Shown: positions 19,800-64,000, counted from the stretch's first letter. The stretch: DNA of 64,000 nucleotides from Blasia pusilla (GCA_050084515.1 CM114271.1:41416001-41480000), one strand, 5' to 3'. Notes: generated by a model not told the origin, from the sequence alone. Translations and numbers: made by a program.

Positions 19800-20200
19800 T
19801 CCTAGCCTATGCGCAGAGCATTATTGCAATGAATAATGATGTCCCTAATATAACGACCTAAATCATAAGGCAGTAGTAAAGAATAAAAATTCCCCGCATC
19901 AATTTTCTGAGCTAGTCTAATTGTTTCATATATAGGACATATAAAAAACACGTGTTTGTCATCCTTAATACTTCTTACGTTACATAACCTACACAATCAT
20001 TTGCTTTTATCAATGTGCCATTGTCCTTCCTTGATGCTTAGTCTATGAGACCCACTGCGTTGTTGTGCAATAATATGATGTAAGAAAGTGAAGATTCCCT
20101 AAAGTATATATTCTTGTTCATAATATACAAGCATAGGATTAATATGAAATTTATAATAATCCATTTTCGTGTTCGGGATGCTCCAAAGAATGGTAAGGAA
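19800..20200 (-). mobile_element. 3' fragment of a non-LTR (LINE) retrotransposon
   Basis: QRSGSHRLSIKEGQW followed by CCHC knuckle CRLCNVRSIKDDKHVFFICPIY, typical of LINE ORF2 C-termini. Confidence 0.7.
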
Positions 20201-20863
20201 TCGCTTTTGTAGATGCTGATGGAGCGCCGCCGGTTTCAAGTCTCAATCTCGTTCAGTCACATCCCACTTTAAAGACTAGGTCACCATGCTTGTTAGATTC
20301 GAAAGCGCAACCCCTGATGTTGGGGAAGGTACGTGGCGTTTATATGATTGGGTCTAACGAGTTGGAGGAGCAATGTTGTACTTGATGGGGTTTGCCCTGG
20401 ATTCCCCGGAGGAGTCAACGTGTTACGGACCAAAATGGCAGTTAGGTGATGGGTGTCTTAGCTTGTTACCCATTCAATTAACAAATGGAGTGATCTAGTG
20501 ACGGCTAGGAGAGATGGCGATGCTAGCAACATTCAGTAGCACCATCACTTGGCATGATGATTTGATTGAGGGACATGTTAATGTAGAAGACACACCCATG
20601 ATTGACACCCCTGTGGAGAGGAGTATTATGATATATAGCAACATCATTCTAGAGGAGAGGTACTTTTGTAAGGCTCGAGTGAGGAGCTTGGACGCTTGGT
20701 TGATGGGCACATGTGGATGGCCTGGAATGAGGAATTGCACCATAGCGTGATGGGTGAGTGAAACTCGGAGTGCTACGATGTCGTAATTGGACACCAGAGC
20801 CATTGTGTGGTGCATCTTAGAGAAGGGTATTTGAGGGCATATGACTTAGATTGGGCAGGGAGC

Positions 20864-42500: not shown

Positions 42501-44334
42501 TATACTTAACAATAGGATCTCTATGTACCTGGAGGAGAATTCTGTCATCAAGGAAGGCCAGGCTGGCTTCCGGCAAGGCCAAGGATGCATGGACCACATC
42601 TTCACCTTCAGTCAGATCATCTAGGGTAGGAAAAAAGAGGGGAAACCCACCTATTGCTTCTTCTTGGACCTCAAGAAGGCATACGACATTGTATGGTGTG
42701 ACGGGATTTCTTATAGCCTGTGGAAGGCGGGGTTGAGAGGGAAAATGTGGAGGGTGGTGGAGAAGATGTACCAGAACACAAGGAGTAGAGTTCTGGTGAA
42801 TGGCCAAAAGAGTGGGACATTCGACATCAAGCAAGGAGTGGCTCAAGGATGCCCGCTCTCCCCCACCCTCTTCAACATTTTCGTGAATTCCCTATTGGAA
42901 GAAATGGAGGATAGTGGACTAGGCATACGGGTGGGCAACACCTCTATTATTGCCCTCATGTTTGCTGATGACTTTGGTGGCCTCGAGGAAATAGGAGAGA
43001 AACTCCAAGAGATGATCTCCCTGACCAAAATCTGGTGTGACATGTGGGGCATGGAGGAAAATGTACTGAAGTGCGATGTGATGATTTTCAATGGCAAGGA
43101 GGAGGACCAAGACCAAAAGTGGTACTGGGGTGACCAAGAGATCCCACGTGTGGCTACCTACACCTATCTGGGCATAGAATTCTCGGAAGATTGCATGTGG
43201 GATGCACACATCAAGAAGACTCTTGAGAAAGGCCACAAGAAGATGAAGCAGTCTGTCGATTCCTCTGATCTTGGGGACATCACATCAGAAGTAAAGCTGT
43301 GTCATTTTGCATACCATTCATCCTCGCTGGAATACGGGCAGCAGTGTGGGATGCCAACACCAAACAAATGGATAGGCTTGAAGTCGTGCGGCGGTGAAAG
43401 GCGTTTCGGGTATGATGTCAACTTCATCACGAACAACCCGCGTTGGTGTGAGATCAGAACTAGGTGTGGAACCCTTGGAGGATAGACGTGACATCGCCAA
43501 GTTGAAATGGAGGAGGCAGCTGGAGACAATGGACTCCCATCGCTATCCTAAAGAGGTGATGGGGAAAACCTGGACCCAAAGAAGACCCGTAAAACATGCC
43601 AAATCTTGGACGAAAAAGGTTCAAGAGATTGTGCAAGCATCCAAGCTCCCAGCACAGCATTCGTGGGAGCAAGATGAGAAAGCATTCGTGGATACCATAA
43701 CTAAAGCAGTGGGCAAACGCTCACAGCAGAACAGCATGGAGGAAGCCATGAAAATGTCTGACCTCTCTCTTTTGACGGTATATCCCGAGAGGGCGAATCA
43801 AGAACTATTTATGGGAACCCCTTGCTTGGGAACGCGGCTCAAGTTCAAGTTCGGGGACGGGGCAATCCCCTTGCACCATAAGAAAAGCGAGGATGGGAAC
43901 AGAACTAAACTCTTGCGCCTTGTGTGACGATGGGGACGAAACCTCTAGTCATTACTTGGTCTCTGCGCCAAAATTCACAACACACAGAGCAAGAGCATAT
44001 CCGATATTGCTAAGTGGTAGCACCAGAATTGTTCAACACATTCAGTAGCCTTGATTCATTGCCCTAAGCTTTGACCTTTGGTAAGTAATGTCTATTGGGG
44101 ATCCCAATCAGGTAAAGTAGTTTGTGTGGTGAAGAGTTTCTTGGTTGACACTTGGAAGCTCCGCACAAACACGTTGTTTGGTCAGCACTCACACTATATG
44201 AGAGTGTCTCCCTCCTCTCATATGGTACCTTCTTCACTTGCTTCTCTCTCTACACCCATCCCACTCTCAAGCACCGTCCAACTAGGGCGCGGGGTCTATG
44301 GTCGCAAGGCTACAACAGGCACTACTTAATGAGT
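39545..44334 (+). mobile_element. Near full-length non-LTR retrotransposon (APE endonuclease + RT + CCHC), disrupted
   Basis: APE motifs LGTWN/QETW/GFGF/FFGDF/SIVDY. RT motifs NYRGITLLS, QAGFR, DLKKAYD, GVAQGCPLSPTLF, FADD, YTYLG. C-terminal CALC..E...H (~43914). Flanked on both sides by (CT)n. Confidence 0.92.
40980..41454. repeat. ~240-bp fold-back inverted duplication within the LINE endonuclease
   Basis: 40980-41220 is the reverse complement of 41224-41454, with a 3-nt loop (gga, 41221-41223). Confidence 0.95.
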
Positions 44335-47354: not shown

Positions 47355-50300
47355 TGTCACGTCTTTTAGGATAGATCGGTGAGATCTAGTAGAGCGCCTT
47401 CGTGAGTAGTGGAATACAAGCTCAGTAGGTTGAGGATGACCTGCTGAGGCCCGAGAAACCTGAGATAGCAGGTTTCCCCTTCGTTTCGGCTCATTTAGAG
47501 CCATATTGAGGAATAGGTAAGTATCATTTTGAATAGATCATCGACTTTCTATTTTTGGTAAGTGGTCCTTGACCTCCTACATCATGTCAAGAGCCAAGGA
47601 GGTGACTTGGGAGAATAGGTTACCATGGAGAGAGCTTGGGAGAGGGAAGAGGTATACCTCATGGAGAGAGAGCTTGATAGCTCATTCTCAAGCTCTTGGC
47701 ATGAGGCGGCGGAGCTATGGTCCCTTGCCTTGTGAGTGTAACTCAAGCCTCTCATTAGGAGAGTGGGTTTGGTTTGACATGAGAGAGAGTGCACACCTTT
47801 GAGAGCTATGGTGTGAGATCTGAGGAGCACCATGTAGCTTGCTGATTTGTATTTTTATAGGTTTTTACATTTTTGTTGGGAGAAATCAGCGCGGAACCGC
47901 TGCCAAATTTTGTGTAGGAGAAAGAGACATTGGGCCTCAACAGAAATTTTACAACATTCCATGTCAGTTTTTACTCAAATCTCCAATTTTAAATATTTTT
48001 TCACGTCATTGTAGATCGTGAAGCTGTGCACGTTGTGCAACAAACGGTGCCAATTTAGAGTTGCGAGTAAAAAGTTATGGTTAATCTTGAAAAACTACCA
48101 TTGCTAGGCGATTTTTAGGCGCCCGAGTGAGAGTTTGCGTGAGGCTTACACTTGCTTGCGCCGGTTGATCAACGTCACTCAGGGGGTGAAAAAGGCTCAG
48201 GGTATCCAGTCATAGTACGCGATGTTGGACCGGACCCTGCAGACACAAGTCCGGGAGGGGGTGCTTCTTATGAACACCTCCCCTACATTGAGAGATGTTT
48301 TTAGGACCGCCGAGAACATTGAGCGCAACATGGTGGAGGAGAGCATAGCCACCATGGATTCTGGGCGAGAGCAATCACGATTGTCTGCACCACCTATGCA
48401 GCAATGTGGACTCCGAGATAGGTCGACTGTGGCACCACGAGCTCAGGGAGGATATTGGGGGGCCGTGCCACAGACACTTGCGCCTTCATATGCAGCTCAG
48501 CAACAGCCGCCTACTATTACTTGTTGGTCATGTGGTGGAGCCCATCATCAACGCGATTGCACTCGTCAAGGTCATGGACGTGTGCCTCAGCATGGAGGAG
48601 GAGATGGTGCTGCACCAGGAGGTTATCAATGTGACTATTGTCAATGGTATGGTCATACACGTGCCAAGTGTTTCATTTTACATCCTGAGTTACGTCCGGA
48701 CCGAGGGCCAGAGAGGGCACTAGAGCATGTAGCCGGTCCGGGTGGGCTCGAGATCATGCACAACCCGTGGTGCACGATCTCGAGCCCACCGGACCGGCTC
48801 CTTGTCCCCCAACAGGACCCACCCGGTGTCCTGTTGGGGGACAAGGAGCTGGAGTTGCCCGAGAGGGTGGTGGAGCTACCCATGGAGGAAGTAGAGTCCC
48901 ACCACCTAGACGCGTGGAGGGAGATGCCAGGCGTGAGGCTAGGATGGCTACTCAGATACATCAGTTACAGGAGCAGATTACCGCTATGCCGAATCCGTGG
49001 CATCCACATCATATGGAGCAGCCAGAGATATGGAGGATCTTGGTTGGATATGCGGGGTTGCCCAGATGGAGGCAGCCACAGTTGTGACGTGTGGAGCAGC
49101 CGTAGAGTTGGATCCACAGCGAGGGGAAGCTAGGGAACAGACTAGGCTTCCTCAATCTTTCACACTGTTCGAGGCGATGAGGACCCCATCGATGGGTCCT
49201 GATTAGAGTTCCTGGAGAGTTGGTGATGTTTTTGGTGTGCAGGCACGAAGGGCGATGGGAGAAGCGAGTGCGACGACTCCTATTGCTGATGCTCAGGACG
49301 AGCATGTGTCAAGCACGTTGTTGGGGGCGGCCACCGTTATGTAACGCGCTCCTTTATTTTTTGCTTCCGATGTTATGACGTTGGGAGGTACGCCCGCCGA
49401 GGCTTTTCGGCTGGCCGCTACGCTATGTGAGGGTGGAGTTGGAGTTCCTGCATCACGTTCAGAGGTGATTGCAGAGGAGGTGATGGACCTGCCCTTGGAG
49501 CGGATGCTCGGACAGTCCACGTCAGATTCATGGCAGGCTGCAGCTGCTAGGATGGCAAAGATGCCCGCTAGACCCGCGATAGAGCTGCAATGGCTTCTCC
49601 TGGTGTTGTGTTGCTAGATAACCAAGGAGAAGTCTTTTAGTTGGTGAGTCATCGAGGTAGACCTTTTAGTCCGCAACGCGTCTTGTTGGATTGAGGAGCG
49701 CAACCCGTGATGTTGGGGAAAGCGTAATTCAGAGGATTGGGCTTGACAAGAGCCGATATGGAGCGTTGTCCATTCCAGATACAGACATCCTTGGGTGGAG
49801 CGAGTACCATACAGTATATCACCCGATAGGAGGTCCTAGTGAGGATTTGTACGGGACATCCTACAGATGAGTCCGTGGTGCGAGCCAAGGCGATAGTGAT
49901 TGATGCAGAGTCCTATGACGTCTTGGTTGGTGGAGCAGTGTTATATCCGATGGGGTTTTCCCTGGATTATTGGGAGGAGTCAGCGTCCTATAGACCAGGA
50001 TGGCAGTAAGGTGATGGGCGTCTTAGCTCATTACCTGTTTGATTCACAGGTGCAGTGATCGAGCGACGGCCAAGAGAGGTGGTGACCTTAGCAGCATTTA
50101 GCAGTGCCATCACTTGGCCTAGTGATTTGATTGAGGGACATGTCCATGCAGAGGATACTCCCGTTCCTGAAATTTCTATGGAGAGGAGTGTTATGGTAAC
50201 CGCATCATTTTGTGGAGGAGAGGTGCCGATGTGGGGTTCGACGAAGGAGCTTCGACGATTGGCAGATGAGCACGTGCAGGCCACGTGGAGCAAGGCGTTT

Positions 50301-50469: not shown

Positions 50470-53351
50470 GCTGTAGATTTGTCCTTGGCGGTGATGACCT
50501 TGGACACCAACTCCGCTCTCTCGAGGGCTTGCTCCTCCGCATCTCCTTCAGAAAATTCTTCAGGCTGCATAAAATTCGGGATGTCGTCCCTACCTGCGGC
50601 CACTGCATCATACCTGTCAAAGATTATTATCGTTGATGTCCTCGAGGTAGGTGAAGTCCAGCGAGATGGGGCAATTCTCAACTTCCCAGTCAGACATGCT
50701 TTGAGCCATCTCCATGTCGTAGATGGAAAATGTCTCTCCATGAGGCGGAGAAGCCCACAATTTGTAGGTTGCCGGTATTTTTCGCCACGTACTTGCATTC
50801 TTATAATGGACGAGGTACCTGAACATCATGCGTTGGGCAGCTCTTTGTCGTGATGCATCGGCCTGAAGATCTTGCTTTTTCTTTGCGAAATCCCTTTTCT
50901 TCGCCTCTATTTCTTCATCAAGGTCTACTTGAGGGAGGATGTGATCCTCGAACATCATCATGAAGCCTGGGTTGTTTATGGGCTAGTCCCGGATGTCATC
51001 CAGCCAAAGTTCGAAATCTTCAGCACTCTCCAGGTTTGCTTCCTCCGGAAGTGGTTCTATTTTTTTCATCTCTGCTTGGAGACCCATGAGCATGGACTTC
51101 TCGAGAAGCCGCAACGCGTCCCCGAATGACCATTCATGGAGCCAATGGGAGATCACTCGATCAGAGACACCCGGAGGATGGTGTGCCACCCTCTTTTGGG
51201 CCTCTCTGCCCTCGAGACTGATTTTCATCATTCGGATTCTCCTAAATTCCGAAATTCCAGACAAGGCAAATCGATGGACGCGGTCGAGAGACACTTTCTC
51301 CCCAATCCGACCCTGCGGATCTTCATCCCTCTTCCGCTGGCGTTTGATTATCGCCTTCAGCTCCTTGTGGAAATCGGGGCCAAGTTCGGGGTTGATAATG
51401 GTGATGTAGCGGTGCATCTTGCTTGCAGTGCAGTTCGTAGCTGCACATACTGCAGCTTGGATGAACCTAGCACGCTAAGACGCAGACACGTTCTCCCTCC
51501 GCTCTAGCTCCCATGAAGCGCTCTTCTTGGCGGCCTGTATCTTCGACCAGCAAAGGATTTTCACGGCTACATCTTGGGAAATAAATGTATGTGCCCAAGT
51601 CTTTTTTTTATTTGAGCCTCCTTCGCCAGCTTCTCATTTACAAGGGCGTCCCCAAGAACCCCTTGTATTCTGCCGGGTGCATCGTTAGCACTTTCTTCAC
51701 CCGATCGCAATCCTCGATCCAGTGGTGGGTGACATTCCCCTCGGATACAATCTTGCACATCCAAACACAATATAAGAATTTTTGCAAGCTACATGGGTTC
51801 CTGCAACCCGTCGGACTCCAACAGGTTGTCAGATAATTTGTATTCAGAGAGTGGTCTCCGCGGAAAAAGTGAACATATCAACCTGTCGGAGTCCGACAGG
51901 TTGCGCAATTTCAAGCAAATCTGCAATTTGACACCAAAAATCAAGCTCCCCTACAGGGATCACCTACCCATGCCGGTGATTGCAACCCGTCGGAGTCCGA
52001 TGAGTTGCTTTCGGCCAAAAATATCCTTAAAAAAATAGCCAATCGAGCAACTCGTCGGACTCTGACGAGTTGCTTTCGGCCAAAAACATCCTAAAAAAAA
52101 TGGCCAGTCAAGCAACTCGTCAGACTTCGACGAGTTGCTTTCGGCTAAAAACATCCTAAAAACAGTGGCCAGTCAAGCAACTCGTCGCACTTTGACGAGT
52201 TGCTTTAATGCATCCGATGTTTTGTTAGCACTCCTTAAACAACTTGTCGGAGTTTGATGGTTTGCAGCAATCAAAATACAGGAAGAGGAAACTTACGTGT
52301 TCATGGCACGCATGGCCATTTCCACCGTCGCCATGTGATGAGGGTATGGGTGTAGCACGAGTGCCTCCAATGAGTTTTGGCGCTCCTCTACAAACTGGGT
52401 CCATGCCATGAACCTGTGGTTTCCATCCCAGATTAAGAAATACAGGTTCCGCATCCACCTGAATTTCGTCCCCTCAATCGCTCTTCTGAATTGGTGATCT
52501 CTCATCCTCCAGAATGTGTCGAGCGGTTCCAAGTCCTCCTCCATCACCAACGCTTGGGTTCCATGTTCATCATTAGGCTGAACATAGAACGGAGGGAAGT
52601 TGTCGACGTAGGATGTTGTCCCTGCCGATTGTTTCAGCTTCACAATATCCTCGTCAGACGGAATTTCACGGACGTACTCCATTGTCCGCAATCGGCAAAG
52701 TGGAATTCTTGGGGCATTCTGGCCCTCCATCAGTGCCATCTGCTTTACCACCTGTCACAACGAGGACAAGGTCAATAAACTACATTGAATTGCCAATGAA
52801 TTGAAACATGGGCCTTCACATAACTCAAAGAACAAAGATCGTATCTTACCCGCTCAAAGATTGGGTCGGTGTCTTGGCCCGCCAACTTCTCTAGGACACC
52901 AGCTGGCAAGTCCACTAGAAACTCATCGATCCGATAGAGGTCAATTTCTTCCGCCGAGCTAAGAGACGAGGAAGACTACTCTCCTGCTTCTTCAGAGATG
53001 TCCACCATCTCCATGCTGGCGGTCCTCATGAATTGATCTTCTGTCACTTGAACTTCGGCCGTTTCCTCAGCCAATTTTATATTGATTGTGTCCCCGGAAT
53101 TCATCGGGGACATTTCCTACATCTCAACACTTTCGGTTGGACGGGCCGAGCTTTCTTCAATAGCAATCGATTTTTCCCTTCGAGCTTTTTCCAATTTTGC
53201 TCTCCTCACCGACGTGTCCAGACGCTTCTTTTCATGCTTCTCCTCGGCGATCCTTTTCTTCAAGGCTTACGACGCCTCAGCCTTTGCGTGGAGTTCTGGA
53301 CTTGGGAGTGAAGCTCCCAGCCTTGCTTGCTTGAGATTTTTTCCTCGTCAT
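50470..53351 (-). pseudogene. Left, 3'-truncated copy of a spliced ParB/Srx-domain gene
   Basis: ATG at 53351 (MTRKKSQASK) with TATA at 53567-53573. Exon 52751-~52295 encodes PRIPLCRL..VR..D..KLK.S....Y..IWDGNHRFMAW (DGNHR at 52427-52413). Reverse complement of 57029-60149. Confidence 0.8.
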
Positions 53352-54215
53352 TGTTCCCGAAAATGCCTCGTCCTCGACAACGAAATTACTTTCTGTGCAC
53401 GATGAGTCGCTCAGATGAGTCGCCTTGATGAGGCGCTCGAATCGTCTCGCGATGAGTCTCGAGATGAGTCGTCGTGTAAAGCGCCTCTTGGTATCTGGTC
53501 CGCTGCTATGCTGAAGAGCAATCGAGATGCTGAAACGAAAAATCAGAAATGAGCGAACCATAGCCTATTTATAATTTTTGGGCCGTTGGGCTGATCGTTG
53601 GGTCGCATCGTCGTTCCGACAGCAACCTGTCGGCTGTTATGGAGGTCGGGACGTGAAAACCACCAACTTGATGGTCTCCGACGGGTTAGAGACATCCGTC
53701 CTAGTCAAGCTATCCTGGCAATCCGTCGAAGTCCGACAGGTTGCGCGTCTCCGCCATCTTGGGGCAAGAACCCGAGGTACCCACGCAACCCGTTGGAGAC
53801 CGGCGGGTTGCACCCTTCTCTTGTCTTGGGATAACAAGGCGGGGTACCCGCGCAACCTGTCGGAGGCCGATGTATTGCACGCTTCCTTCATGTAAGCGTT
53901 ACAAGGCGTGGCACTTGCGCAACCCGTGGTAGGGAGGTGCGGTAAGAGGAGAGGAAGAGAGGAAGAGAGGAGAGAGGAAGAGGAGAGAGAGGAGAGAGGA
54001 AACTACCTTCAATCGAAAGAGATATATTTTTTTAAGAGAGTTTCTTGCGATTTGAAGAGAGTTTCCGTTGGGTTGAACAGAGGAAAATTTCGGTGTGAAT
54101 TTTTTTGCACTTTTTTGCTCAGTTCTTAAGCACTCCCACATTTTGTTTTTCCTCTTCCACATTTTGGCAACTCCTCTGAGTCCGACGAGTTGCAAATTGC
54201 ACAAAATTAAGAAAA

Positions 54216-55303
54216 CTAAAAAATCAGTGGAATCATAAGTGTGGAATCAATCACTTTTGCAAAGGTATATGTAATGCGAGCATGCTCTGAACTTCCTCCG
54301 TCTACGAGTCTTGTAAGATTTTCCACTTCGTCTTGAGTGCAATTCGTACCTGCGGCGATGGGCAAAATCATGGGGGTATTCCCCAGAGCTCCAATGGCAG
54401 CCAGATAAGACTTACGGAAAGTGCAAGATTCATTTGGGCATAAGAAGTACTTCAATTGATCCCCGATCAAAGGTTTTGAGTCCCCAAAACCCAAGCAGTG
54501 GTTGTCCAGTCCTTGTACAGTTCTTATTTAGGAAAGTGCCGCATGCTCTCCTAATGCCATCTAATCTTGCCCTGCAAGTGGGTCCATGTCTAGGGTTGCT
54601 CCAAGATATATGCTACCATTTCATGTTGCAATCCACCTCCATGACCGGAATCCCATATTGTTGAACCACCCCAGTGACCGGATGTTGCGAACTTCCAGCA
54701 ACGGAAGGCTTTTGAAATAAAACATTCACTGATTTTGGAGAAGTTACTCCATCACGGATTTGGGAGCAATCCGGGGTCCCCGAATACCTCGGCGGCATAA
54801 TTTCCTCATCCAAATCAATCACCGGATTCGTTCCTCGATGCTGCCTCTTCACCTTCCTGAAGTCAAGATACTTATCTGGTCTCCACGAGTCTTGCTCGGA
54901 CTGCTCTACCACCATCTGTATGGGACGTCTTGAAACGTGCCCACAAATATCCCCACCAATGTGTATGTCTTGCTCAAGGGGAGTTCCTGCTACGCACCGG
55001 TTGAAGGCTTCCACATAGAGTTTCTCATCACCCGATCTCATAGACATAGAGCTCGTAGATCGAAGGCCCCCTTCCTTTTGTTATGCCTTTTGTGAGGAAG
55101 ATATGGGATGCTGCAAACTGAAGCATTGCTCTTGCTTGGTCTTGTTGGCATGCCTCCACAAGTGAAATTCTTTGGCATGCTTGTGACGACCTCCAAGAGG
55201 AATGAACACTTTCGGCTCGACTTGTGTTGGGGCAGAGGGCATTTTCATGAATGTTCAATCCTTGCAACGACCCCAATGTGAGAAGGGAACGAAAATAGCT
55301 CAA
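54216..55303 (-). pseudogene. Decayed Cys/His-rich ORF fragment, possibly the C-terminal part of a DNA-transposon protein
   Basis: Frameshifted ORF pieces DQARAMLQ..GRGPSIYEL, W*HI...C.A....C, FLCPNESC. The coding-like character is clear; the family assignment is tentative. Confidence 0.4.
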
Positions 55304-57028
55304 AAGTCAAAGAAATAAGCTACCTGTCAGAACCAGACAAGTTGCAAGGCCGAGGCATCTCATGAACGACCTTGCGACCTATCGGTTCTTGATGTGTTGC
55401 AACACCCAAGAACCACCTAGTGCAACCCGTCGGATTTTGACGAAATGTGAAGTTGGAGTCAATGCCAGATCTACTGACCTAGGAGTTGCAAAGGTAGAGC
55501 TCGGTGCACTAGGAAATTCTTGACCGTTATTTGGGAAACTGAGGAATTCAAAGGCAAGCCGTAAACTCTGTATTAACCATTTGCTAGAGGTAGGAGATTT
55601 AATACTTTACGGTTTACAATCACTGAATGGATTGTCTCACCTATTATGTCCTCCATACCGTCCACCCTAAAATCCTTGGACACAAAGATGGTTCCAATTT
55701 GGAGAAGAAATCGAACTCAGAGAAAATTTTCATCCACTGGTATGAAAGACTCACGAGCTTGCGGCCGAACGATTTCTGATTAAGGAAGGGCCGCTAGATG
55801 ACTGCCACAAGTAAGCTTCACATAATTATCCCTTCCCAGAAGATTCCATTGGGAGGAGACTGAGAATAAGAATGAAGATAAGAATGGGAATGGGTATGAG
55901 AATGAGAATGAGAATGTTCAATTTATAGTGAATAGGGACTCAGATTCTCCTGACAGAATTTGACTGATAAGATGAAGTTTGGTAGGTGAGATTTTCTGAC
56001 ATGATGGATTCAATTATGTTGCAACTAGTCGGAGTCCGATGGGTTGCAGAATTTGGGAATCAGAGACGTGGATTGCGAAGCACCCAGTTTCTTTTTTTTG
56101 TTTCCGTGTCCCAATGCAATTTGGAAGCCGTCGGAGTCCGTGGAGTTGGTACTTGCTTCATGCCGACCAATGGTCTTTTGAGACGATTTTGCTAGCATCA
56201 AACACGAGACATCGCTTGCATTTGCTAAGGTAACTAATCGCTCGGGACTGTTACGGGATTTTCCAACTCATGGTAAACCTTGTGACCCGTCGGATTGCAA
56301 GAGGTTGCCTCGGAACTATCCGTTGTCGCATTTTTACCCGAGGGATAGAAAATAGTGCAACATGTCTGTTATCGACAGGTTTCCTAGGAACCTCGCCTAT
56401 TACCCCAAGATGAGGGAACCGTGCAACCCGTTGGCCTCCGACGGGTTGCGCAAGTGCCTCCCCTTGTAACGCTTACATGAAGGAAGCGTGCAACCCGTCG
56501 GCCGCCGACGAGTTGCGCGGGTACCCCGCCTTGTTATCTCAAGACGAGGGAAGGGTGCAACCCCCCGATCTCGACGGATTGCGCGGATACCGCGTGTTCT
56601 TGCCCCAAGACGGCGGAGGCTCGCAACCTGTCGGACTCCGAGGGGTTGTCAGGATAGCTCGGCTAGGATGGATGCCTCCAACCCGTCGGAGACCGTCAGG
56701 TTGGTGGTTTTCACGTCCAGACCTCCATAACAGCCGACACGTCGCCATCGGAATGACGGTGCGATCTAACGGTCAGCCCAACGGCTGGAAAAGTATAAAT
56801 AGGCTAGGGTTCGCTCATTTTCGGTTTTTCGTTTCGCGATCTCGATTGCTCTTAAGCGCAGTAGCGGACCAGATACCAAGGGGCGCTTTACACGACGACT
56901 CATTGCGAGACTCATCGCGAGACGATTCGAGCGACTCATCAAGGCGACCCATCCGAGCGACTCATCAAGGCGACTCATCGTGCACAGAAAGTAATTTTGT
57001 TGTCAAGGAGGTGGCATTTTCCAGAACA

Positions 57029-60000
57029 ATGACGAGGAAACAAACTCAAGCAAGCAAGGCTGGGAGCTTCACTCCCAAGTCCAGGACTCCTGCGTCACCA
57101 TCTCTAGGGCCTCGTTCAGCCAATAAGATGAGTCAGCAAGAGATCAAGGAGCGCAAAAGGGAAGCAAAGATGCACAGGCAAGAGCTTCTTGCAAAATGTG
57201 TTAAGGAGGCGCTTGAAAAACACAACGCAGAGGTTGAGGCGTCGCAGGACTTGAAGAAAAGGATCGGTGAGGAGAGCAGAATTGGCAAAAGCTCGAAGGG
57301 AAAAAGCGAGTGCCATTGAAGAAAGCCCGGCCTGTCCAACCGAAAGTGTTGAGATGCAGAAAATGTCTCCGATGAAGTCTGGGGACACAATCAATATAAA
57401 ATCGATTGAGGAAACGGGCGAAGTTCAAGTGACAGACGATGAGGTCATGAGGACCGCCAGCGTGGAGATGGTGGACATCTCTGAAGAAGCATGAGAGTGG
57501 TCTTCCTCATCTCTTAGCCCGACCGAAGAAATCGACCTCTATCGGATCGACAAGTTTCCAGTGGACTTGCTAGCTACTGTCCTAGAGCAGTTGGCGGGCC
57601 AAGACACCGACCCAATCTTTGAGAGGGTAAGATACGATCTTTGTTCTTTGAGTTATGTGAAGGCCCATGTTGCGATTCATTGGCAATTGAGTTTTAGTTT
57701 ATTGACCTTGTCCCCGTTGTGACAGGTGGTAAAGCAAGTGGCACTAATGAAGGGCCAGAACGCCCCGAGAATTCCACTTTGCCGATTGCAGAAAATGGAG
57801 TACGTCCGCAAAATTCAGTCTGATGAGGATACTGCGAAGCTAAAACAATCGGCAACGACAGCATCCTACGTCGACAACTTCCCTCCGTTCTATGTTCAGC
57901 CTTACGATGAACATGGAACGCAAGCGCTGGTGACGGAGGAGGACTTGGAAGCGCTCGACATATTCTAGAGGAATTAAGAAGGGCGATTGAGGGGATGGAA
58001 TTCAGATGGATGCGGTTCCTGTATTTCTTCATCTGGGATGGAAACCAGAGGTTCATGGCGTGGACCCAATTTGTAGAGGAGCGCCAAAACTCATTGGAGG
58101 CGCATTTCTCCGTGAAGGCAGTCGTGCTACATCCATACCCTCATCACATGGCGATGGTGGAGATGGCATGCATGCCATAAACACGTAAGTTTCCTCTTCC
58201 TTTATTTTGATTGCTGCAAACCGTCGGACTGCGACGAGTTGTTTAACTAGTGGTTACAAAACATCGGATGCCTTAAAGCAACTCGTGGAAGTCCGACAAG
58301 TTGCTTGACTGGCCGCTGTTTTTAGGATGTTTTTGGCCGAAAGCAAATCGTCTGAGTCCGACGAGTTGCTTGACTGGCCACTATTTTTAGGATGTTTTTG
58401 GCCGAAAGCAACTCGTTGGAGTTCCACGAGTTGCTCGAATGGCTGTTGTTTTAGGATGTTTTTGGCCGAAAGCAACTTGTCGGACTCTGACGGGTGGCAT
58501 TCGCCGGCACGGGAAGGTGATCGGAGTAGGGGAGCTTGATTTTTGGCGTCAAATTGCAGCTTTACTTGAAATTGCACAACCTGTCAGACTCCAACGGGTT
58601 GATATGTTCACTTTTCCCGCGGAGACCACTCTCTGAATATAAATTATCTGACAACCCGTCGGAGTCTGACGGGTTGTAACTAGGCAATCACAAATCTGAA
58701 TGCAATCTGTCGGACTCCGATGGGTTGCAATATTTAGCTCGTAGCTACCATTCCGACCATTAGGTGTGGCGACCTGTCGGAGTCGGACGGGTTGCAGGAA
58801 CCCATGTAGCTTGCAAAAATTCTTATATTATGGTTGGATGTGCAGGATTGTATCCGAGGGGAATGTCACCCACCACTGGATCGAGGATTTCGATCGGGTG
58901 AAGAAAGTGCCGACGAGGCACCCGGCAGAGTACAAGGGGTTCTTGGGCGACGCCCTTGTAAATGAGATGCTGGCAAAGGGGGCTCAAATAAAAAAAAAAA
59001 AGACTTTTATTTTCCAAGCTGCAGCCGTGACAATCCTTTGCTGGTCGAAGATACATGCCGCCATGAAGAGCGCTTCATTGGAGCTAGAGGGGAGAGAGAA
59101 CGTGTCTGTGTCTGAGCGTGCTAAGTTCATCCAAGCTGCAGTATCTGCAGCTATGAAGTAGATTGCAAGCAAGATCCAGCGCTACATTGCCATTCTCAAC
59201 CCCGAACAAGGAGCTGAAGGCGATAATCAAGCGCTAGCGGAAGAGGAATGAAGATCCACAGGGTCGGATTGGGGAGAAAGTGTCTCTCGACTGCGTCCAT
59301 CGATTTTTCTTATCTAGAATTTCGGAATTTAGGAGATTATTGAGACTGATTTTCATCAGTCTCTATGCCCTCGAGACTGATGAAAATCAGTCTCGAGGGC
59401 AGAGAGGCCCAAAAGAGGGCGGAACACCATCCTCCGGGTGTCTCTGATCCAGTGATCTCCCACTGGCTCCGTGAATGGTCATTCTGGGACGCATTGCGGC
59501 TTCTCAGGAAGTCCATGCTCGTGGGTCTCCAAGCAGAGCTAAAAAAAATTGAGCCAATTCGAGAGGAAGAAAACCTTGACAGTAGTGAAGATTTCAAACT
59601 TTGGCTGGTTGACATCCGGGACAAGCCCATAAAACACCCAGGCTTCAGGATGATTTTCAAGGATCACATCCTCCCTTAGGTAGACCTTGATGGAGAAATA
59701 GAGGCGAAGAAAAGGGATTTCGCAAAGAAAAAATGAGATCTTCAAGAGCAGGCGGTCGATGCATCTCGAGTAAGAGCTTCCTAACGCATGGTGTTCAGGT
59801 ACCTCGTCCATTGTAAGAATGCAGGTACGTGGCGAAAAATACCGACAACTTCCAAATTGTGGGCTTGTCCGCCTGATGGAGAGACATTTTGCATGTACGA
59901 CATGGAGATGGCTCAAAGCATGTCCGACTGGGAGGTGGAGAATTGCCCCATCTGGCCGGACTTCAACGACCCTGAGGACACAACGGAGAAAAATCTACGC

Positions 60001-61915
60001 CTGGTCTATGATGCAATGGATGCAGGTAGGTACGACATCCCCAATTTTGTGCAACCTGAAGACTTTTTCGAAGGACATACAGAGGAGCAAGCCCTCAAGA
60101 CAACGGAGTTGGTGTCCAAGGTCGTCACCGCCAAGGACAAATCTACAGCGGGTCTCAAAGCTAAGGCGAGGGGATCGAAGAATTCTGAGGCCGAGTCTTC
60201 CCAAAAAGAGGCTGAGAATTCAAGGTGAGAGGTGGAATCGTCCGGGCGAGCGGGGAGAGAGGGTCGGACCAGGTTCTTCGCAAAAAAAACTCCACCAGAG
60301 TTTGAGGTAATAGAGACCCTAACAAGCCGACTGCAGACTCGGGAGAAGCGGAAGTGAGAGGCGACAGGTTTGTCCCGAGGAGTAGACCAGGATGTGGAAT
60401 ACACTCCATCATCCTTGGGAAGATATAGAGAAACAACAACCTGGACAAGCGTCATCATTCACTGCACGAATCATCTAGATGAGCTGCAAAGTTTTAGTTC
60501 CCAAGCGTCGACACCCGCCATCGACAAATTAACAACGCTGGGACGGGCATGCTCTGTGGACGGTCCATGGGGAGGTCGAGGAGGTGGCAATGGATCTCTT
60601 CGTCGCTGATTTTCCCTCGGGGTTGCGCTAATGAGACGAGAATCCGTCTGACGGTGTCCCAAATTGGAATGTCCCTCTTTCTTATGACCAGATCGCGCTC
60701 CTATTTTCCTTTGCAGACGCTTATCTCAGTGACAGGGGCTGTTTCTTGGTCTTGACTGGAGGGAGCGAGGATGAGCTCTTCAACCTGCAGTGCGTCAAGT
60801 GGTCGCTAAAGTGGAGGATGGCGCAATCGTGGGTCATCAAGAACGAGTACCCACTCCGATCGGCGACGAGTCAAATCCGGGTAAGGGCTCTTAATCCATC
60901 TCCAAATTGTCTTGCTCCGACGGGTTGCATGTCTCCATGCATGCAACCCGTCGGATTGTCTGAGCTGGAGACTTTGATGGTGCAATCTGTCTAAAAGCCA
61001 CGGGTTGCAAATTTACAGCAAGTCTCCATTGGATGAATGCAACCAGTTGGAACCTGACGGGTTGCAAGTGCTTATGCTTTTCCTTTTGTTTCTAGATGAT
61101 GCAACCCGTCTGAAAGCGACGGGTTGCTCTTAGCCAACCATGGGTTGCTCTAAGCCAGCAACTTGTTGCCTTCCGAGGGGTTGCTCATGGCAAAACAAAT
61201 CACTAACACTTGTAAAACAACCCGTCGGACTCCGACAAGTTGCTCCAATGTTAGGACTAAGTTCTCTGGGGTTTAGCAAAGTTCTTTGGGAATGAGTTGC
61301 ACATTGTGTCAACATTCTGATAGTATACCTTTCTTGTTGTTGCATACTGAAATTAGCTCTTTCTTGTTGCTGACATTTTTTCCAATCTGCTTCTTTACAG
61401 ATGGACCACTCCTTTGTCTATTGTTTTGTAAGGCCCGAGCACAACTTCCAAGTGTTTCAGATCCTCGATCCAGTGGATCCATGCTCCGATGGGTACAACT
61501 TAGATTGTTTATACAATTCCCCCCCTGGGGAATTTACATGCAAAATGGTACCCCCTTACTTGGAGGAAGGGAAAAGTCGCCAACGCTGATGCAAACACTC
61601 ATCGAGCTCTGCTCAAGGCCGGGTGACTTGGTGTTCAACTTAGTGGGCCTTTCAGGGGCGAGTATCAGAGGCGTCTGGCAGAGTGGCAGGAACACTATCT
61701 GCCTTGAGGGAAGGCAAGAACTATTTGACCTTTGCAAAGAGGCAAAGGTAGACTACGACAGGCTAGTTGGGGCGTACAACTCTCCTCCGAAGCCGAGAGC
61801 TCCGGTTCCACACCCACCATTGGTAGTGACACCATTGTCACTTCCTACGATTTCAAAAATTGGGAGGGCAAGGCTGACAATAATTCTGGTAGAGCTCTCG
61901 GACGATGACGAGTGA
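57029..61915 (+). pseudogene. Spliced ParB/Srx-like + beta-class N6A/N4C DNA methyltransferase-like gene (right copy, complete domain set, disrupted)
   Basis: TATAAAT at 56794 and ATG at 57029. Introns 57627-57725, from 58185, and 60881-61400. DGNQR at 58037-58051; motif IV-like DLFVADFPSG at 60593-60622; motif X/I/II region REKSPTLMQTLIELCSRPGDLVFNLVGLSGASIRGVWQSGRNTICLE at ~61568-61708. Confidence 0.8.
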
Positions 61916-61969
61916 GTTCAAAAAACTCAAGGACCCAACTTGACTGCAGCGTTTTGGAATAGGGATTTA

Positions 61970-63045
61970 TTTGATGACGAGGCAAAAGAATTCATAGAAT
62001 AGATTTTTTCGAACGATGATGGTGTTTGTAAAAGTTTTCTGAATATCTTTTTTTGTCTTGTCGATTATGATCGTCTATGTACTCCGACAGTTCAAATTGC
62101 AACCTGTCGGATTGCCACACGTTGCAACTTTTCACTTTTTGACCACTGCACCTTTTTAACCACTTCCAGGCAATCTGTTGGATTCCGACAAGTTGGTTGC
62201 GTGAGTGATCAGACTCTTTCTCTATTAGTCCAACTTTAGAGGCATTCTAGCGGGCTTCTTCACTTTGGCACCTTCCCCTAGTTTCGTCAAACAAGTCTTA
62301 GGCTTCCTCTTTTCTCTAAGACGTGTTGGATTCCTACTACCTATCGGATTGCCATGATTGTGTCTCCAAGGACAGAGCACATATTGATACTTGATGGGTG
62401 TCACCTTGTAGAGCGTACAAGATTTACTGCCAAGGAAGGCGGTGGGACTCAAATCAGGTTACATGGGACCGTTATGGTGTACCTAGGGGGGTGCCAAGGC
62501 TCTCGAATTCGCCAACATTTTCGATCCCCGTCTACAATCGGCCAAAGGAGCCACTTGTATCCCACGACATTCCTTTTGTACAGGAACCTATGAGAGTTAG
62601 GAGTAAAATTGTAGATGATGAGGCTAAAGAAATCATAGACTAGATCAAATGTACATTTCTGAGCAGCTTCGGATGTAATAAAGGACAAAATTTTTTCAAA
62701 CGATAATAGTGTTTGTAAAAGTTTGCTGAATATTTTTTTTTGGACTTGTCGATTTTGTTCGTCTAGCTACTCAGAATTTTTATTTTGCAACCCGTCGGAT
62801 TCTGACGGGTTGCAACTTTTCACTTTTTCACCACTACAACTTTTTACCCATTTCCAGGCAAGCTGTCAGATTCCGGCAGGTTGGCTGCTTGAGTGATTGG
62901 ACTCTTTCCCTATGAGACCAACTTCTGAGGCATTGTGGTGGGCTTCTTTACTTTTGGCTCGTTCCCCTTATATCGTCAAACCAGTCATAGGCTTCTTTTC
63001 TTCTCTAAGAGGTGCTGGATTCCTACTACCTGTCGGATTGCCGTT
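61970..63045. repeat. Direct duplication (~640-700-bp offset) downstream of the MTase gene
   Basis: gatgacgaggcaaaagaa..aacgatgatggtgtttgtaaaagttt..ggattcctactacct at 61973-62352 repeated at 62615-63042. Confidence 0.8.
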
Positions 63046-64000
63046 TCGGATTCCCAACCAGTTGGATTTTCGTGGGTGCAGGATGGAATGGAATCACTTC
63101 TCAAAATCTTTCCTTTGTTATGGTGAGTTTTCTTGCAAGGGGTGCAAGCCATCTGAATTCGACGGGTTGCAAGAGTTGCAACCTGTAAAATTCCGACGGA
63201 TTGGGAGGGGTGCAGCTTCTCAATTTCTCAGATTTAGGATCTGAATGAAGGGACATCAGTTCCTCTTTACTCCAAACAGCTAACAATCTTTTGGTTCAAT
63301 TATCGTCTCGTTTGTTCACATTTCACAAATTTGGTCTTGAGCAGACACCATTCATTATGGGGCAATTCAAGGGAGGCCATTATAGCAAGCAAAAAAGACG
63401 TACGCATCCGGGTGAGGTCTCATGACACATTAACACTTTAGAGACACTTGGGAATGGGGGAAGCTCAACAATTCTCATTCTGGTACTGTGTTGCCAATGG
63501 TTTTCCATAATGTATGATGAGTATTGATGCCTGGTCAAGAAGAGTCAACAATCATTTACAGGCATTTCCTTGTGCCTTTCTTTTGCAAGAAGAGATGTCA
63601 ATCCATAATGTCAACCAAATATTCCGAGAAGTTAAACCTTGAAAAGCACCGCAGTCTGTTGAGACCATCGTTAGAGTCTTTATTTGAATCTTTCATTGAG
63701 ATGAGATTGCTACTTTTGGTCAAATTATTTGCCAATGGTCCTCCAAAAAAAATACCCTTCGGCACAGCTTATTGTAGACTGAGACAAGCAATGTGAAGAA
63801 ACTTAGGCTCACATGGAGAGTGATGGAAAAATGTTTGTAGTGGTCTTATGATATCTACTTGTTTTTCGCCCCTTGGAAAAAGAGGTTTCTTTAGGCCCGA
63901 ATGTGGACTACTACATACTCTCTTCTTAAGATTTCATGAATTTGAAAGCAAACAAAAATTTCAAATATGTCAAAAAGTTTTGAAGAGAGAAGGCGGATTT

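What the first reader, a model, noticed from the sequence alone, without database searches (positions are those of the whole stretch)
57029..61915. Intron-containing ParB/Srx + N6A/N4C-type amino-methyltransferase gene in a plant repeat element
Seen: a TATA-preceded spliced gene (GT-AG introns). It encodes a charged N-terminus, a ParB/Srx-like segment (IPLCRL..VR..D..KLK.S...Y..IWDGN[H/Q]R) and a long linker. These are followed by DLFVADFPSG (DPPY-like motif IV), L...G.F, and EK.P.L+..LI..CSRPGDLV..G.SG..GR..I.LE. Established: motif IV before motif I is the beta-class order of prokaryotic N6-adenine/N4-cytosine MTases, ParB-MTase fusions are typical of phages and plasmids, and bacteria-derived N4C MTases are known in Marchantia and bdelloid rotifers. 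Inference: a multicopy mobile family carries a prokaryote-derived amino-MTase that has acquired introns and could, in intact copies, write non-5mC marks. Caveat: this copy has stops (e.g. 60629-60634) and a frameshift (~61520), and motifs IV and I deviate from consensus.
Basis: partly seen in the sequence, partly recalled or inferred. Interest (0 to 1): 0.9.

Follow-up and report, generated by a model that had tools for sequence, protein, structure and literature searches.

The report
Dead transposon-type methyltransferase-like gene copy
This is a broken copy of a very abundant plant repeat gene whose tail end descends from bacterial DNA adenine/cytosine-N methyltransferases but has lost the usual catalytic signature, a land-plant-side relative of accessory genes already described in algal transposons.

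Summary
Window 57029-61915 (+) is a four-exon gene with three GT-AG introns and a TATA box upstream, and every quoted motif is at its place. It carries at least a dozen stops or frameshifts. A second, truncated, inverted copy lies at 50470-53933.

The C-terminal ~230 residues are a real, collinear homologue of beta-class N6A/N4C DNA methyltransferases. The family profile against 10 canonical enzymes gave hhalign probability 98.3%, E 1.2e-14; controls gave at most 0.8%. The catalytic DPPY is DFPS here and DAPE in four intact moss (Ceratodon) relatives. The deviation is therefore family-wide, and canonical amino-methylation is doubtful.

The ParB/Srx reading rests on a motif pattern and a language-model lead only. 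Pfam, PHROGs, NCBIfam, PDB sequences, hhalign and AlphaFold2 gave no support.

Whole-genome reads pile up 200-1240 deep, so the family is highly multicopy. RNA reads come only from diverged paralogues, mainly over the last exon.

Twenty-nine 27-bp palindromes sit only in and around the two copies; they are candidate docking sites.

ParB-like plus methyltransferase accessory proteins are already published for brown, green and red algal transposons. I rate this a new variant of a known kind. No transposase or element ends were found.

The parts
56406..56649 (+). 5' flank: tandem ~67-bp units, each carrying a 27-bp palindrome (sites at 56423, 56490, 56623)
   Evidence: TRF found period 67 x 2.4 at 56406-56563. 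Palindrome scans. The array is conserved in copy B at 53711-53891.
56794..56801 (+). TATAAATA box, 228 nt upstream of the ATG
   Evidence: Sequence. Identical in copy B in the A/B alignment.
57029..57626 (+). Exon 1: charged Lys/Glu/Arg-rich N-terminus. Broken by a ~35-38-nt deletion near 57264 and by TGA at 57492-57494.
   Evidence: ORF list. A/B alignment. 138 whole-genome reads carry extra letters at the 57264-57266 joint.
57627..57725 (+). Intron 1 (GT..AG, phase 0)
   Evidence: Sequence and frames. Conserved in copy B.
57726..58184 (+). Exon 2: ParB/Srx-like candidate domain (IPLCRL 57771-57788, IWDGNQR 58031-58051). Broken by TAG at 57966, a 13-nt deletion at 57972 and a 1-nt deletion near 58167.
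   Evidence: The same exon in copy B is an intact 153-aa ORF at 52293-52754(-). Language-model neighbours carry ParB_N. No profile support. dN/dS between A and B is 0.35 over 146 codons.
58185..58845 (+). Intron 2 (GT..AG, phase 2), filled with nine 27-bp palindromes, including a 65-bp x 3.4 tandem array at 58275-58492
   Evidence: The same array is in copy B at 51982-52206.
58846..60880 (+). Exon 3: long linker of unknown fold, then the N-terminal half of the methyltransferase-like domain from about 60440. Motif IV equivalent DLFVADFPSG is at 60593-60622 and TAA TGA at 60629-60634. Many stops and frameshifts.
   Evidence: ORFs. tblastn of the Ceratodon proteins to 60587-60865 gave E 4.5e-5. 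hhalign places ADFPS on ADPPY of canonical enzymes.
60881..61400 (+). Intron 3 (GT..AG, phase 0) with further palindromes (61039, 61101, 61217)
   Evidence: Collinearity with intron-free moss proteins. RNA reads of paralogues break exactly at the acceptor: loose ends before 61399 in 14 reads (X14) and 21 reads (X16). Palindromes.
61401..61915 (+). Exon 4: C-terminal half of the methyltransferase-like domain (REKSP 61568-61582; motif I equivalent 61634-61663; GRN..CLE) and an acidic tail. Two extra bases at 61526 shift the frame.
   Evidence: PF01555 E 0.09. PHROG DNA methyltransferase families E 2.7e-4 and 8e-4. hhalign C-half 97.5%, E 6.7e-12. Reads: 428 of 757 lack the two bases.
62003..63170 (+). 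3' flank: ~690-bp tandem duplication (62003-62353 and 62690-63042, 82.7% identical) with palindromes at 62170, 62787, 62858 and 63144
50470..53933 (-). Copy B: second, head-to-head copy, 85-88% identical to 56435-60149. It is cut off at 50470 by an unrelated repeat, so its methyltransferase part is missing.
   Evidence: blastn and alignment.

Best explanation
Shown: window 57029-61915 is a dead, methylation-decayed copy of a high-copy repeat gene of about 1,200 codons (four exons, three spliceosomal introns). Its C-terminal ~230 residues are a diverged beta-class N6A/N4C DNA methyltransferase domain (Pfam N6_N4_Mtase lineage). In that domain the catalytic (D/S/N)PP(Y/F/W) loop has become A-D-x-P-x-G, while motif X, the motif I aspartate and one glycine, and the ribose-binding glutamate region are kept.

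Inferred: the N-terminal exon-2 domain is probably a ParB/Srx-like module. If so, the protein belongs with the ParB-like plus methyltransferase accessory proteins described in algal DNA transposons.

The likeliest mechanism (inferred): the protein recognises its own element through the 27-bp palindromes that are arrayed in its 5' flank, introns and 3' flank. It then acts locally on element DNA or chromatin. The rewired methyltransferase domain would serve as a SAM-binding or DNA-binding module (pseudoenzyme or non-canonical enzyme) rather than as a standard 6mA/4mC writer. This particular copy makes no protein.
For: Methyltransferase homology
- hhalign of the family (window read-through with X at breaks, three Ceratodon domains, two ENA fragments) against 10 canonical PF01555 enzymes gave probability 98.3%, E 1.2e-14 over 209 collinear columns.
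- The window alone gave 94.4%, E 8.7e-8.
- The motif IV half alone gave 60.6%, E 8.3e-5. The motif X-I half alone gave 97.5%, E 6.7e-12.
- Controls gave at most 0.8%: the reversed family and five column shuffles, and reversed versions of both halves and of the window alone.
- Independent hits: a PHROG DNA methyltransferase family in 7 of 8 members, best E 1.8e-7. PF01555 in relatives at E 7.6e-6, 1.8e-4 and 0.015. A family profile hit PDB 5hek/5hfj (depositors' name: adenine-specific DNA methyltransferase DpnA) at E about 0.003. 20 of 30 language-model neighbours carry PF01555.

Family-wide motif change
- This copy has DFPS. All four intact Ceratodon paralogues have DAPE. VP[SN]WNV and D-x-S-A-x-T-G-A-S are shared.
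- At 61637 the family majority reads G (1098 of 1162 reads). That turns this copy's Asn into the canonical motif I Asp.

Multicopy and decay
- Whole-genome depth is about 200-1240 with about 1 in 100 of the run read. Of 34,759 laid reads, 33,547 are under 95% alike.
- 304 of 810 variant places are A>G or T>C. This copy therefore has A or T where the family has G or C.

Past selection
- dN/dS is 0.35 between copies A and B on exon 2.
- There is 30-42% protein identity to moss relatives.

Palindromes
- All 29 sites lie within 51.8-63.2 kb. 16 matched at 3 or fewer mismatches against 0 expected.
- They form arrays of 65-67-bp period.

Precedent
- Ectocarpus Sola1 carries a 1104-aa ParB-like plus N4C/N6A methyltransferase accessory gene (PMC12477816).
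- Red-algal PAG3 is ParB-like and has adjacent tandem inverted repeats (10.1101/2025.02.11.637652).
Against: - ParB has no statistical support. Pfam gave no ParB hit at E <= 1. PHROGs and NCBIfam gave none. PDB phmmer gave noise only. hhalign against four ParB sequences gave 0.4%. The AlphaFold2 model is unusable at pLDDT 36.7.
- The Ceratodon gene models start downstream of where a ParB exon would lie. The fusion is therefore seen only in this window's two copies, and copy B lacks the methyltransferase part.
- No transposase, terminal repeat or other Pfam domain was found in 53900-56500 (three + frames only; its minus strand was not scanned) or 61900-64000 (six frames).
- Palindrome covariation is no better than shared descent explains: 12 double-change cells against 8.1, and 32 of 500 shuffles reach that value.
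- Binding of the palindromes is pure inference.
- The expressed paralogues join exon 4 to an upstream sequence that is not in this window.
- Loss of activity is inferred from motifs only. Kept motif X, the motif I Asp and the Glu could still allow an unusual enzyme.
Confidence: 0.55

Rival explanations
1. One reading: intact family members are active N6-adenine or N4-cytosine DNA methyltransferases that mark the element with a non-5mC modification.
For: - Full-domain homology to active beta-class enzymes.
- Motif X (REK.P), the motif I Asp (restored in the family majority at 61637), one motif I Gly and the downstream L/I-E are conserved from this family to Ceratodon. This argues for a retained SAM pocket and long-term selection.
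- Published authors suggest such activity for the algal accessory proteins (PMC12477816).
Against: - The catalytic tetrapeptide lacks the second Pro and the aromatic residue in every family member seen: DFPS here and DAPE in 4 of 4 Ceratodon proteins.
- To my knowledge (recalled) the aromatic residue is needed to hold the flipped base.
- No intact copy, no modification data and no enzyme assay are available here.
Confidence: 0.15
2. The exon-2 domain is not ParB-like. The gene is a methyltransferase-derived pseudoenzyme with an unrelated N-terminal region. The palindromes are ordinary subterminal or MITE-like repeats of the host element, perhaps transposase sites, with no link to the protein.
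For: - Every formal test for ParB failed.
- Palindromes show no clear compensatory change.
- Many DNA transposons carry subterminal repeat arrays (recalled).
Against: - The first-ranked of the 30 language-model neighbour clusters of the intact exon from copy B carries ParB_N. It scored 0.95, and shuffled proteins reach that score about once in 100. 5 of the 30 hits share that family set and 3 more carry DUF6551.
- Three core ParB/Srx-type motifs occur in the right order, ending in W-D-G-N-H-R-F-x-A.
- The palindromes lie inside introns of the gene as well as in its flanks.
Confidence: 0.2
3. The functional gene is a single-copy or low-copy host gene (a domesticated methyltransferase-like protein). 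The hundreds of copies, including this one, are dead fragments amplified passively after capture by some other repeat.
For: - RNA reads are concentrated on the last exon only: depth 12-35 against 0-5 elsewhere.
- None is 99% or more like this copy.
- They are spliced to an upstream sequence absent from the window.
- The Ceratodon relatives are annotated as ordinary chromosomal genes on four chromosomes.
Against: - Read depth is high and fairly even over promoter, all exons, introns and flanks.
- Both window copies keep the promoter, introns and palindrome arrays.
- dN/dS of 0.35 between two dead copies suggests that the diverging source copies were under selection.
Confidence: 0.1

Closest known systems
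ParB-like + N4C/N6A DNA methyltransferase accessory protein of the Ectocarpus Sola1-1_Ec32 transposon. [quoted passage not shown]
   Same: - A long protein (1104 aa there, about 1,200 codons here).
- An N-terminal ParB-like candidate domain and a C-terminal prokaryote-type amino-methyltransferase domain.
- Carried by a repeated element.
- Proposed there to bind and modify its own element.
   Different: - The host here is on the land-plant side; the nearest relatives found are moss proteins.
- The catalytic motif is non-canonical.
- ParB is not demonstrated here.
- No transposase or Sola-type ends were seen.
Plavaka accessory genes PAG2 (PF01555 methylase + SET) and PAG3 (ParB-like + 2OG oxygenase) of red algae (10.1101/2025.02.11.637652, passages read).
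   Same: - PF01555-type domain and ParB-like domain as transposon cargo.
- Tandem arrays of inverted repeats next to the ParB-like gene, proposed as its binding sites.
   Different: - There the two domains sit in two separate proteins with other partners (SET, 2OG oxygenase).
- Here both appear in one gene, and the palindromes also fill its introns.
Bacterial and phage beta-class N6A/N4C methyltransferases (Pfam PF01555), such as E. coli YhdJ and the chain of PDB 5hek.
   Same: - Collinear homology over the whole catalytic domain with the same motif order.
   Different: - DPPY is replaced by DFPS or DAPE, and motif I is altered.
- The gene has spliceosomal introns.
- The window's own fragment scores far below Pfam's gathering threshold (13.1 bits against 26.7).
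Eukaryotic host N4C methyltransferases of bacterial origin: Marchantia DN4MT1 (10.1101/2021.02.12.428880, passages read) and the bdelloid rotifer N4CMT (PMC8885841, search listing only).
   Same: - A beta-class amino-methyltransferase lineage present in a eukaryote.
   Different: - Those are low-copy host genes with demonstrated 4mC activity.
- This is a high-copy repeat gene with a degenerate catalytic loop.
- No direct comparison was run.
DAM domains of DIRS and LTR retrotransposons (10.64898/2026.05.21.726589; abstract, section 5 and a term search read).
   Same: - A prokaryote-derived adenine-methyltransferase-like domain carried by eukaryotic mobile elements.
   Different: - That appears to be a different methyltransferase family (a Dam-type domain; the family assignment is recalled, not tested), embedded in retrotransposon polyproteins.
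- No reverse transcriptase or recombinase is linked here.
- That paper does not contain the term ParB (0 occurrences).

Membership tests
Beta-class N6A/N4C DNA methyltransferases (Pfam PF01555 N6_N4_Mtase) | Match to the family profile at or above Pfam's gathering score (26.7 bits) | tested here: not met
   The window exon 4 scores 13.1 bits, E 0.09. The best relative, P0004, scores 26.5 bits, E 7.6e-6. All matches cover only the motif X-I end of the model.
Beta-class N6A/N4C DNA methyltransferases (Pfam PF01555 N6_N4_Mtase) | Homology over the whole catalytic domain, with motif IV N-terminal to motifs X and I (beta permutation) | tested here: met
   hhalign of the family against 10 canonical enzymes gave 98.3%, E 1.2e-14, with 209 columns collinear with YhdJ residues 26-254. 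The window alone gave 94.4%. Each half aligns at its proper place. Reversed or shuffled controls gave at most 0.8%.
Beta-class N6A/N4C DNA methyltransferases (Pfam PF01555 N6_N4_Mtase) | Catalytic motif IV (D/S/N)-P-P-(Y/F/W) | tested here: not met
   DFPS in the window at 60608-60619. DAPE in 4 of 4 Ceratodon paralogues. These are aligned to DPPY by hhalign.
Beta-class N6A/N4C DNA methyltransferases (Pfam PF01555 N6_N4_Mtase) | SAM-binding motif I (D-P-F-x-G-S-G-T-T) and motif X | tested here: inconclusive
   Motif X (REK.P) is kept. Motif I is D-[LW]-S-A-[SN]-T-G-A-S in relatives. The window has N-L-V-G-L-S-G-A-S, with the family majority restoring the Asp. One of the two glycines is kept. 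SAM binding was not tested.
Beta-class N6A/N4C DNA methyltransferases (Pfam PF01555 N6_N4_Mtase) | Methyl transfer to adenine N6 or cytosine N4 in DNA | not testable with these tools
   This needs an enzyme assay or modification-aware sequencing.
ParB/Srx N-terminal domain (Pfam PF02195 ParB_N) | Match to a family profile | tested here: not met
   Pfam gave no ParB hit at E <= 1. PHROGs and NCBIfam gave none. hhalign against four ParB sequences gave 0.4%; that template alignment was small and came from a narrow set of ParB proteins.
ParB/Srx N-terminal domain (Pfam PF02195 ParB_N) | ParB/Srx fold | tested here: inconclusive
   The AlphaFold2 single-sequence model has pLDDT 36.7 and is unusable. 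Language-model neighbours: 5 of 30 hits carry ParB_N, at scores up to 0.95 but with only 151-158 shared features.
ParB/Srx N-terminal domain (Pfam PF02195 ParB_N) | Core motifs in order, ending in the x-D-G-x-H-R-x-x-A box | tested here: met
   IPLCRL .. VR .. KLKQS .. PPFYVQP .. LIWDGNHRFMAW in the intact exon of copy B. The consensus it is compared with is recalled, and the pattern was chosen after the fact.
Transposon accessory ParB-like/methyltransferase proteins of algae | Both domains in one transcript or protein | tested here: inconclusive
   Both lie in one spliced gene model in copy A. Copy B is truncated before the methyltransferase part. The moss gene models lack the exon-2 region. 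RNA reads do not bridge the two parts.
Transposon accessory ParB-like/methyltransferase proteins of algae | Residence inside a recognisable transposon (transposase, terminal repeats) | tested here: inconclusive
   High copy number is shown. No transposase domain was found in the flanks scanned and no terminal repeats in the window. The window ends 2 kb after the gene.
Transposon accessory ParB-like/methyltransferase proteins of algae | Tandem arrays of inverted repeats beside the gene | tested here: met
   29 palindromes, found only at 51.8-63.2 kb, in arrays of 65-67-bp period.
Transposon accessory ParB-like/methyltransferase proteins of algae | Sequence relatedness to the published algal proteins | not tested
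A search of 1.84 billion representatives found only moss and two unnamed relatives.

The most novel reading that the evidence does not exclude
A high-copy land-plant element carries its own ParB/parS-like self-recognition system. A ParB-type module docks on the 27-bp palindrome arrays spread through the element's flanks and introns. It brings a rewired amino-methyltransferase domain (A-D-x-P-x-G loop) that writes an unusual DNA mark, or reads or blocks one, to escape host 5mC silencing. That would make it a plant counterpart of phage ParB-methyltransferases.
Probability: 0.12. Interest if true: 0.85.

Novelty: new variant of a known kind. Interest (0 to 1): 0.48.

Why it matters
It would extend the recently recognised class of epigenetic accessory genes of algal transposons (ParB-like plus prokaryote-type DNA methyltransferase) to the land-plant side, in a family with hundreds or more copies.

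The conserved replacement of the catalytic DPPY loop, with much of the SAM-pocket signature kept, points to a repurposed domain. Testing it could show how transposons bind and shield, or mark, their own DNA.

The palindrome arrays give a concrete, testable candidate binding site.

This particular copy is dead, so the value lies in the family and not in the locus.

Tried and rejected
- **Whole genome.** None is held. Copies outside the window could not be collected and no family consensus could be built.
- **Homologue searches with the intact exon-2 ORF of copy B.** 'Longer' and 'near' lengths both gave nothing.
- **Two metagenome scans** (P0004; the exon-2 ORF). No relatives. An alignment query was not accepted because it has no conserved 7-10-column stretch.
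- **tblastn against plasmids** with the exon-2 ORF and P0004. No match.
- **AlphaFold2.** P0003 with an 8-row alignment gave pLDDT 29.7. The exon-2 ORF alone gave 36.7. Both are unusable, so no fold search was run.
- **hhalign of exon 2 against four ParB sequences.** 0.4%. Attempts to collect a diverse ParB set failed: one phage hit, and plasmid hits saturated by close relatives.
- **Representative-search hit P0001** (E 5.2e-10). It is a low-complexity repeat protein with 21 matched stretches and was dropped as spurious.
- **RNA holders.** No RNA holder was listed by the index. The three RNA runs laid were additions by species label.
- **Loose-end 20-mer** of the expressed paralogue. Not present in the window.
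- **Rfam on 50-64 kb.** No family.
- **Palindrome covariation.** Not above what shared descent gives.
- **A small intron at 59770-59825.** Considered and rejected. The frame is continuous, and the three stops there sit where copy B has Gln codons.
- **DIRS-type DAM domain, giant-virus insert.** Considered and rejected. There is no reverse transcriptase, recombinase or viral gene beside the gene. Only PF01555 is hit, and the gene has spliceosomal introns.
- **Earlier-findings look-ups** by place, sequence and a six-word query. Empty.
- **Supplementary files** of the cited papers were not seen. They may hold the algal protein sequences and element maps needed for a direct comparison.

Full report
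**What is there**

TATAAATA lies at 56794-56801 and an ATG at 57029. The gene has four exons: 57029-57626, 57726-58184, 58846-60880 and 61401-61915. They are joined by three GT-AG introns whose phases keep the frames together. The coding length is about 3.6 kb.

All quoted peptide motifs are at the stated places. So are the TAA TGA pair at 60629-60634 and the frameshift near 61520.

I count at least a dozen disabling changes. Three stops in exon 3 (59677, 59733, 59786) sit where the second copy has Gln codons. That fits C-to-T decay.

**A second copy**

blastn of the region against the window found a head-to-head copy at 50470-53933 on the minus strand. It is 85-88% identical to 56435-60149. 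It is cut off at 50470, where an unrelated repeat begins.

It shares the TATA box, both first introns and the repeat arrays. Its exon 2 is an intact 153-aa ORF at 52293-52754(-), and I used that ORF as the best reading of the ParB-like segment.

Between the two copies, exon 2 shows dS 0.216, dN 0.076 and dN/dS 0.35 over 146 of 154 codons. This suggests, but does not prove, that the source lineages were under selection while they diverged.

**The methyltransferase-like domain is real**

Single-sequence tests on the window are weak:
- PF01555 at E 0.09, 13.1 bits against a 26.7-bit cut-off.
- Two PHROG DNA methyltransferase families at E 2.7e-4 and 8e-4.
- One NCBIfam methyltransferase at E 0.2.

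A full HMMER pass of the exon-4 peptide over 1.84 billion representatives gave only 4 hits at E <= 0.001.
- One, P0001, is a low-complexity artefact.
- The other three are a 758-aa hypothetical protein of the moss Ceratodon purpureus (KAG0605740.1) and two unnamed ENA fragments.
- Three further Ceratodon paralogues were recovered: P0005 as a member of P0003's cluster, and P0006 and P0007 by homologue search.

tblastn of these proteins back on the window hits both halves of the domain. The motif X-I half gave E 4.5e-11 and the motif IV half gave E 4.5e-5. The two hits lie on either side of intron 3.

I then fetched 10 canonical PF01555 enzymes: E. coli YhdJ, eight phage enzymes and one plasmid enzyme. 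Two were checked by Pfam. I ran hhalign in the script box, with these results:

| Query against the 10 canonical enzymes | Probability | E-value |
|---|---|---|
| Family alignment, 209 columns collinear with YhdJ 26-254 | 98.3% | 1.2e-14 |
| Window read-through alone | 94.4% | 8.7e-8 |
| Motif IV half, family | 60.6% | 8.3e-5 |
| Motif X-I half, family | 97.5% | 6.7e-12 |
| Reversed family, five column shuffles, three further reversed sets | at most 0.8% | 0.066 or more |

Three other results point the same way:
- 7 of 8 family members hit one PHROG methyltransferase family.
- A family profile finds only beta-class methyltransferases among PDB sequences: two sequences (PDB 5hek and 5hfj) at E about 0.003 and 2zie at E 2.4.
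- 20 of 30 language-model neighbours of the moss domain carry PF01555.

**But it is not a standard enzyme**

hhalign lays the window's A-D-F-P-S on A-D-P-P-Y of the canonical enzymes. All four intact Ceratodon proteins have A-D-A-P-E at that place. Loss of the second proline and of the aromatic residue is therefore a property of the family and not decay of this copy.

Motif I is D-[LW]-S-A-[SN]-T-G-A-S in the relatives. The window has Asn for the Asp, but 1098 of 1162 whole-genome reads over 61637 carry the letter that gives Asp.

Motif X (REK.P) and the later L/I-E are kept. My reading is that a SAM-pocket-like surface is retained while the base-flipping catalytic loop is rewired. Hence I expect a pseudoenzyme or a non-canonical enzyme. 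This step is inference from motifs. The role of the aromatic residue is recalled knowledge.

**The ParB/Srx part is not settled**

The intact exon of copy B shows the motifs IPLCRL, VR, KLKQS, PPFYVQP and LIWDGNHRFMAW in the order of the ParB/Srx core. The consensus I compare with is recalled.

Its first-ranked language-model neighbour cluster carries ParB_N. The score is 0.95 and 5 of 30 hits have that family set. However, ParB_N is on only 11% and 32% of the members of the two clusters shown, and only 151-158 features are shared.

Every formal test failed:
- no Pfam, PHROG or NCBIfam hit;
- PDB phmmer noise only;
- hhalign at 0.4% against a small ParB set;
- an unusable AlphaFold2 model;
- no homologues in two protein searches and one metagenome scan.

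I put ParB-likeness at roughly 60%.

**Multicopy, old, weakly expressed**

Raw reads of one whole-genome run and three RNA runs of the same species label were laid at 85% or more likeness.

- *Depth.* With about 1 in 100 of the DNA run read, depth summed over both orientations is about 200-1240 in every one of the 30 bins from 56400 to 62400. Promoter, introns and flanks are included.
- *Age.* Only 54 of 34,759 laid reads are 99% or more alike, and 33,547 are under 95%. The family is large and old. If the 54 near-identical reads come from this locus alone, the copy number is of the order of several hundred. That figure is my estimate, not a tool result.
- *Decay.* 304 of 810 variant places are A>G or T>C. 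This copy has A or T where the family has G or C, which is the pattern expected from deamination of methylated cytosines.
- *Private lesions.* The two extra bases at 61526 are missing in 428 of 757 reads. At this copy's 13-nt deletion at 57972, 471 reads run on with other letters. Several lesions are therefore private or minority states.
- *RNA.* None of 808 laid RNA reads is 99% or more alike. Depth is 12-35 over the last exon, with first mates on the minus strand. That orientation means sense in most stranded libraries. Depth is mostly 0-5 elsewhere.
- *Splicing.* 14 reads (X14) and 21 reads (X16) break at the exon-4 acceptor and continue into a sequence that is not in the window.

So paralogues are transcribed and use this acceptor. 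This copy is silent in these samples. One transcript spanning ParB and methyltransferase exons is not shown.

**Palindromes**

A 27-bp dyad (13 + 1 + 13) occurs 16 times at 3 or fewer mismatches, against 0 expected. A half-site scan finds 29 paired sites. All 29 lie between 51.8 and 63.2 kb, that is, in and around the two copies.

They sit in:
- the 5' flank (67-bp period);
- intron 2 of both copies (65-bp period x 3.4-3.5);
- intron 3;
- the duplicated 3' flank.

Compensatory change is not above what shared descent gives. No Rfam family matches.

Red-algal ParB-like accessory genes are reported to have tandem arrays of inverted repeats beside them. Three earlier unchecked notes of this scan also propose dispersed quasi-palindromes as docking sites of phage ParB-methyltransferases. 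On that basis I propose these dyads as the protein's docking sites. This is inference only.

**What it is not shown to be**

No transposase or other Pfam domain was found in 53900-56500 (three + frames; its minus strand was not scanned) or 61900-64000 (six frames). No terminal repeats were found in the window. The window ends 2 kb after the gene. 'Mobile' is therefore inferred from copy number alone.

**Comparison with what is known**

- The architecture is not new for eukaryotic mobile elements. The Ectocarpus Sola1-1_Ec32 transposon carries a 1104-aa ParB-like plus N4C/N6A methyltransferase gene. [quoted passage not shown]
- Red algae carry PF01555 + SET and ParB-like + 2OG oxygenase accessory genes.
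- Iyer et al. 2016 (PMC4738411; passages and section 8) list ParB-HTH fused to Dam-type enzymes in chlorophytes and chytrids. They also list clades derived from phage ParB-terminase loci.
- The DAM domains of retrotransposons appear to be a different family, and that paper does not mention ParB.
- My searches for ParB with methyltransferase, transposon and land plants found no land-plant report. This covers only the open-access library searched.

**Verdict**

This is a new variant of a known kind. It is interesting to transposon and epigenetics specialists mainly for three things: the family-wide rewired catalytic loop, the land-plant-side occurrence, and the candidate binding sites. The locus itself is a dead copy.

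Noticed in passing
window 50470-53933 (-): A second, inverted copy of the same gene lies head-to-head with the finding, 2.5 kb away. Its exon 2 is an intact ORF. It is truncated at 50470, where a different repeat begins (similar to 20361-20835).
   Followed up: yes
window 51803-63170: Twenty-nine 27-bp palindromes (13+1+13) are confined to the two copies and their flanks. They partly form 65-67-bp tandem arrays inside introns. None lies in the other 50 kb of the window.
   Followed up: yes
window 57783-57819: In all three RNA runs, 30-48 reads match only this 37-nt island inside exon 2. They have loose ends on both sides and the opposite mate orientation to the exon-4 reads. Some other abundant transcript shares this short stretch.
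   Followed up: no
window 61399-61401 and 61922: Expressed paralogues join exon 4 to an upstream exon whose sequence is absent from the window, and they diverge from this copy right after the stop codon. An expressed, possibly domesticated, relative may exist elsewhere in the genome.
   Followed up: partly
window 42625-43485 (+), with ORFs 39801-40799 and 43382-43927: LINE-like reverse transcriptase ORF (PF00078, E 8e-22), with neighbouring long ORFs of no assigned family.
   Followed up: partly
window 48216-49133 (+): A 305-aa ORF with only a weak zinc-finger hit (PF16588 zf-C2H2_10, E 2.5e-4, below its cut-off). It looks like a retroelement Gag-type zinc knuckle by eye, and it is next to the truncation point of copy B.
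   Followed up: no
window 40980-41454: A 475-bp stretch that is 91.6% identical to its own reverse complement (a long perfect-type palindrome).
   Followed up: no
window 6001-20000: A 14-kb AT-rich block (GC 0.26-0.32), in contrast to 0.41-0.54 in the repeat-rich right half of the window.
   Followed up: no
window 62001-62004: 571 and 428 whole-genome reads have loose ends on either side of this point, and 161 reads show a joint. Most family copies carry extra sequence here that this copy has lost.
   Followed up: partly
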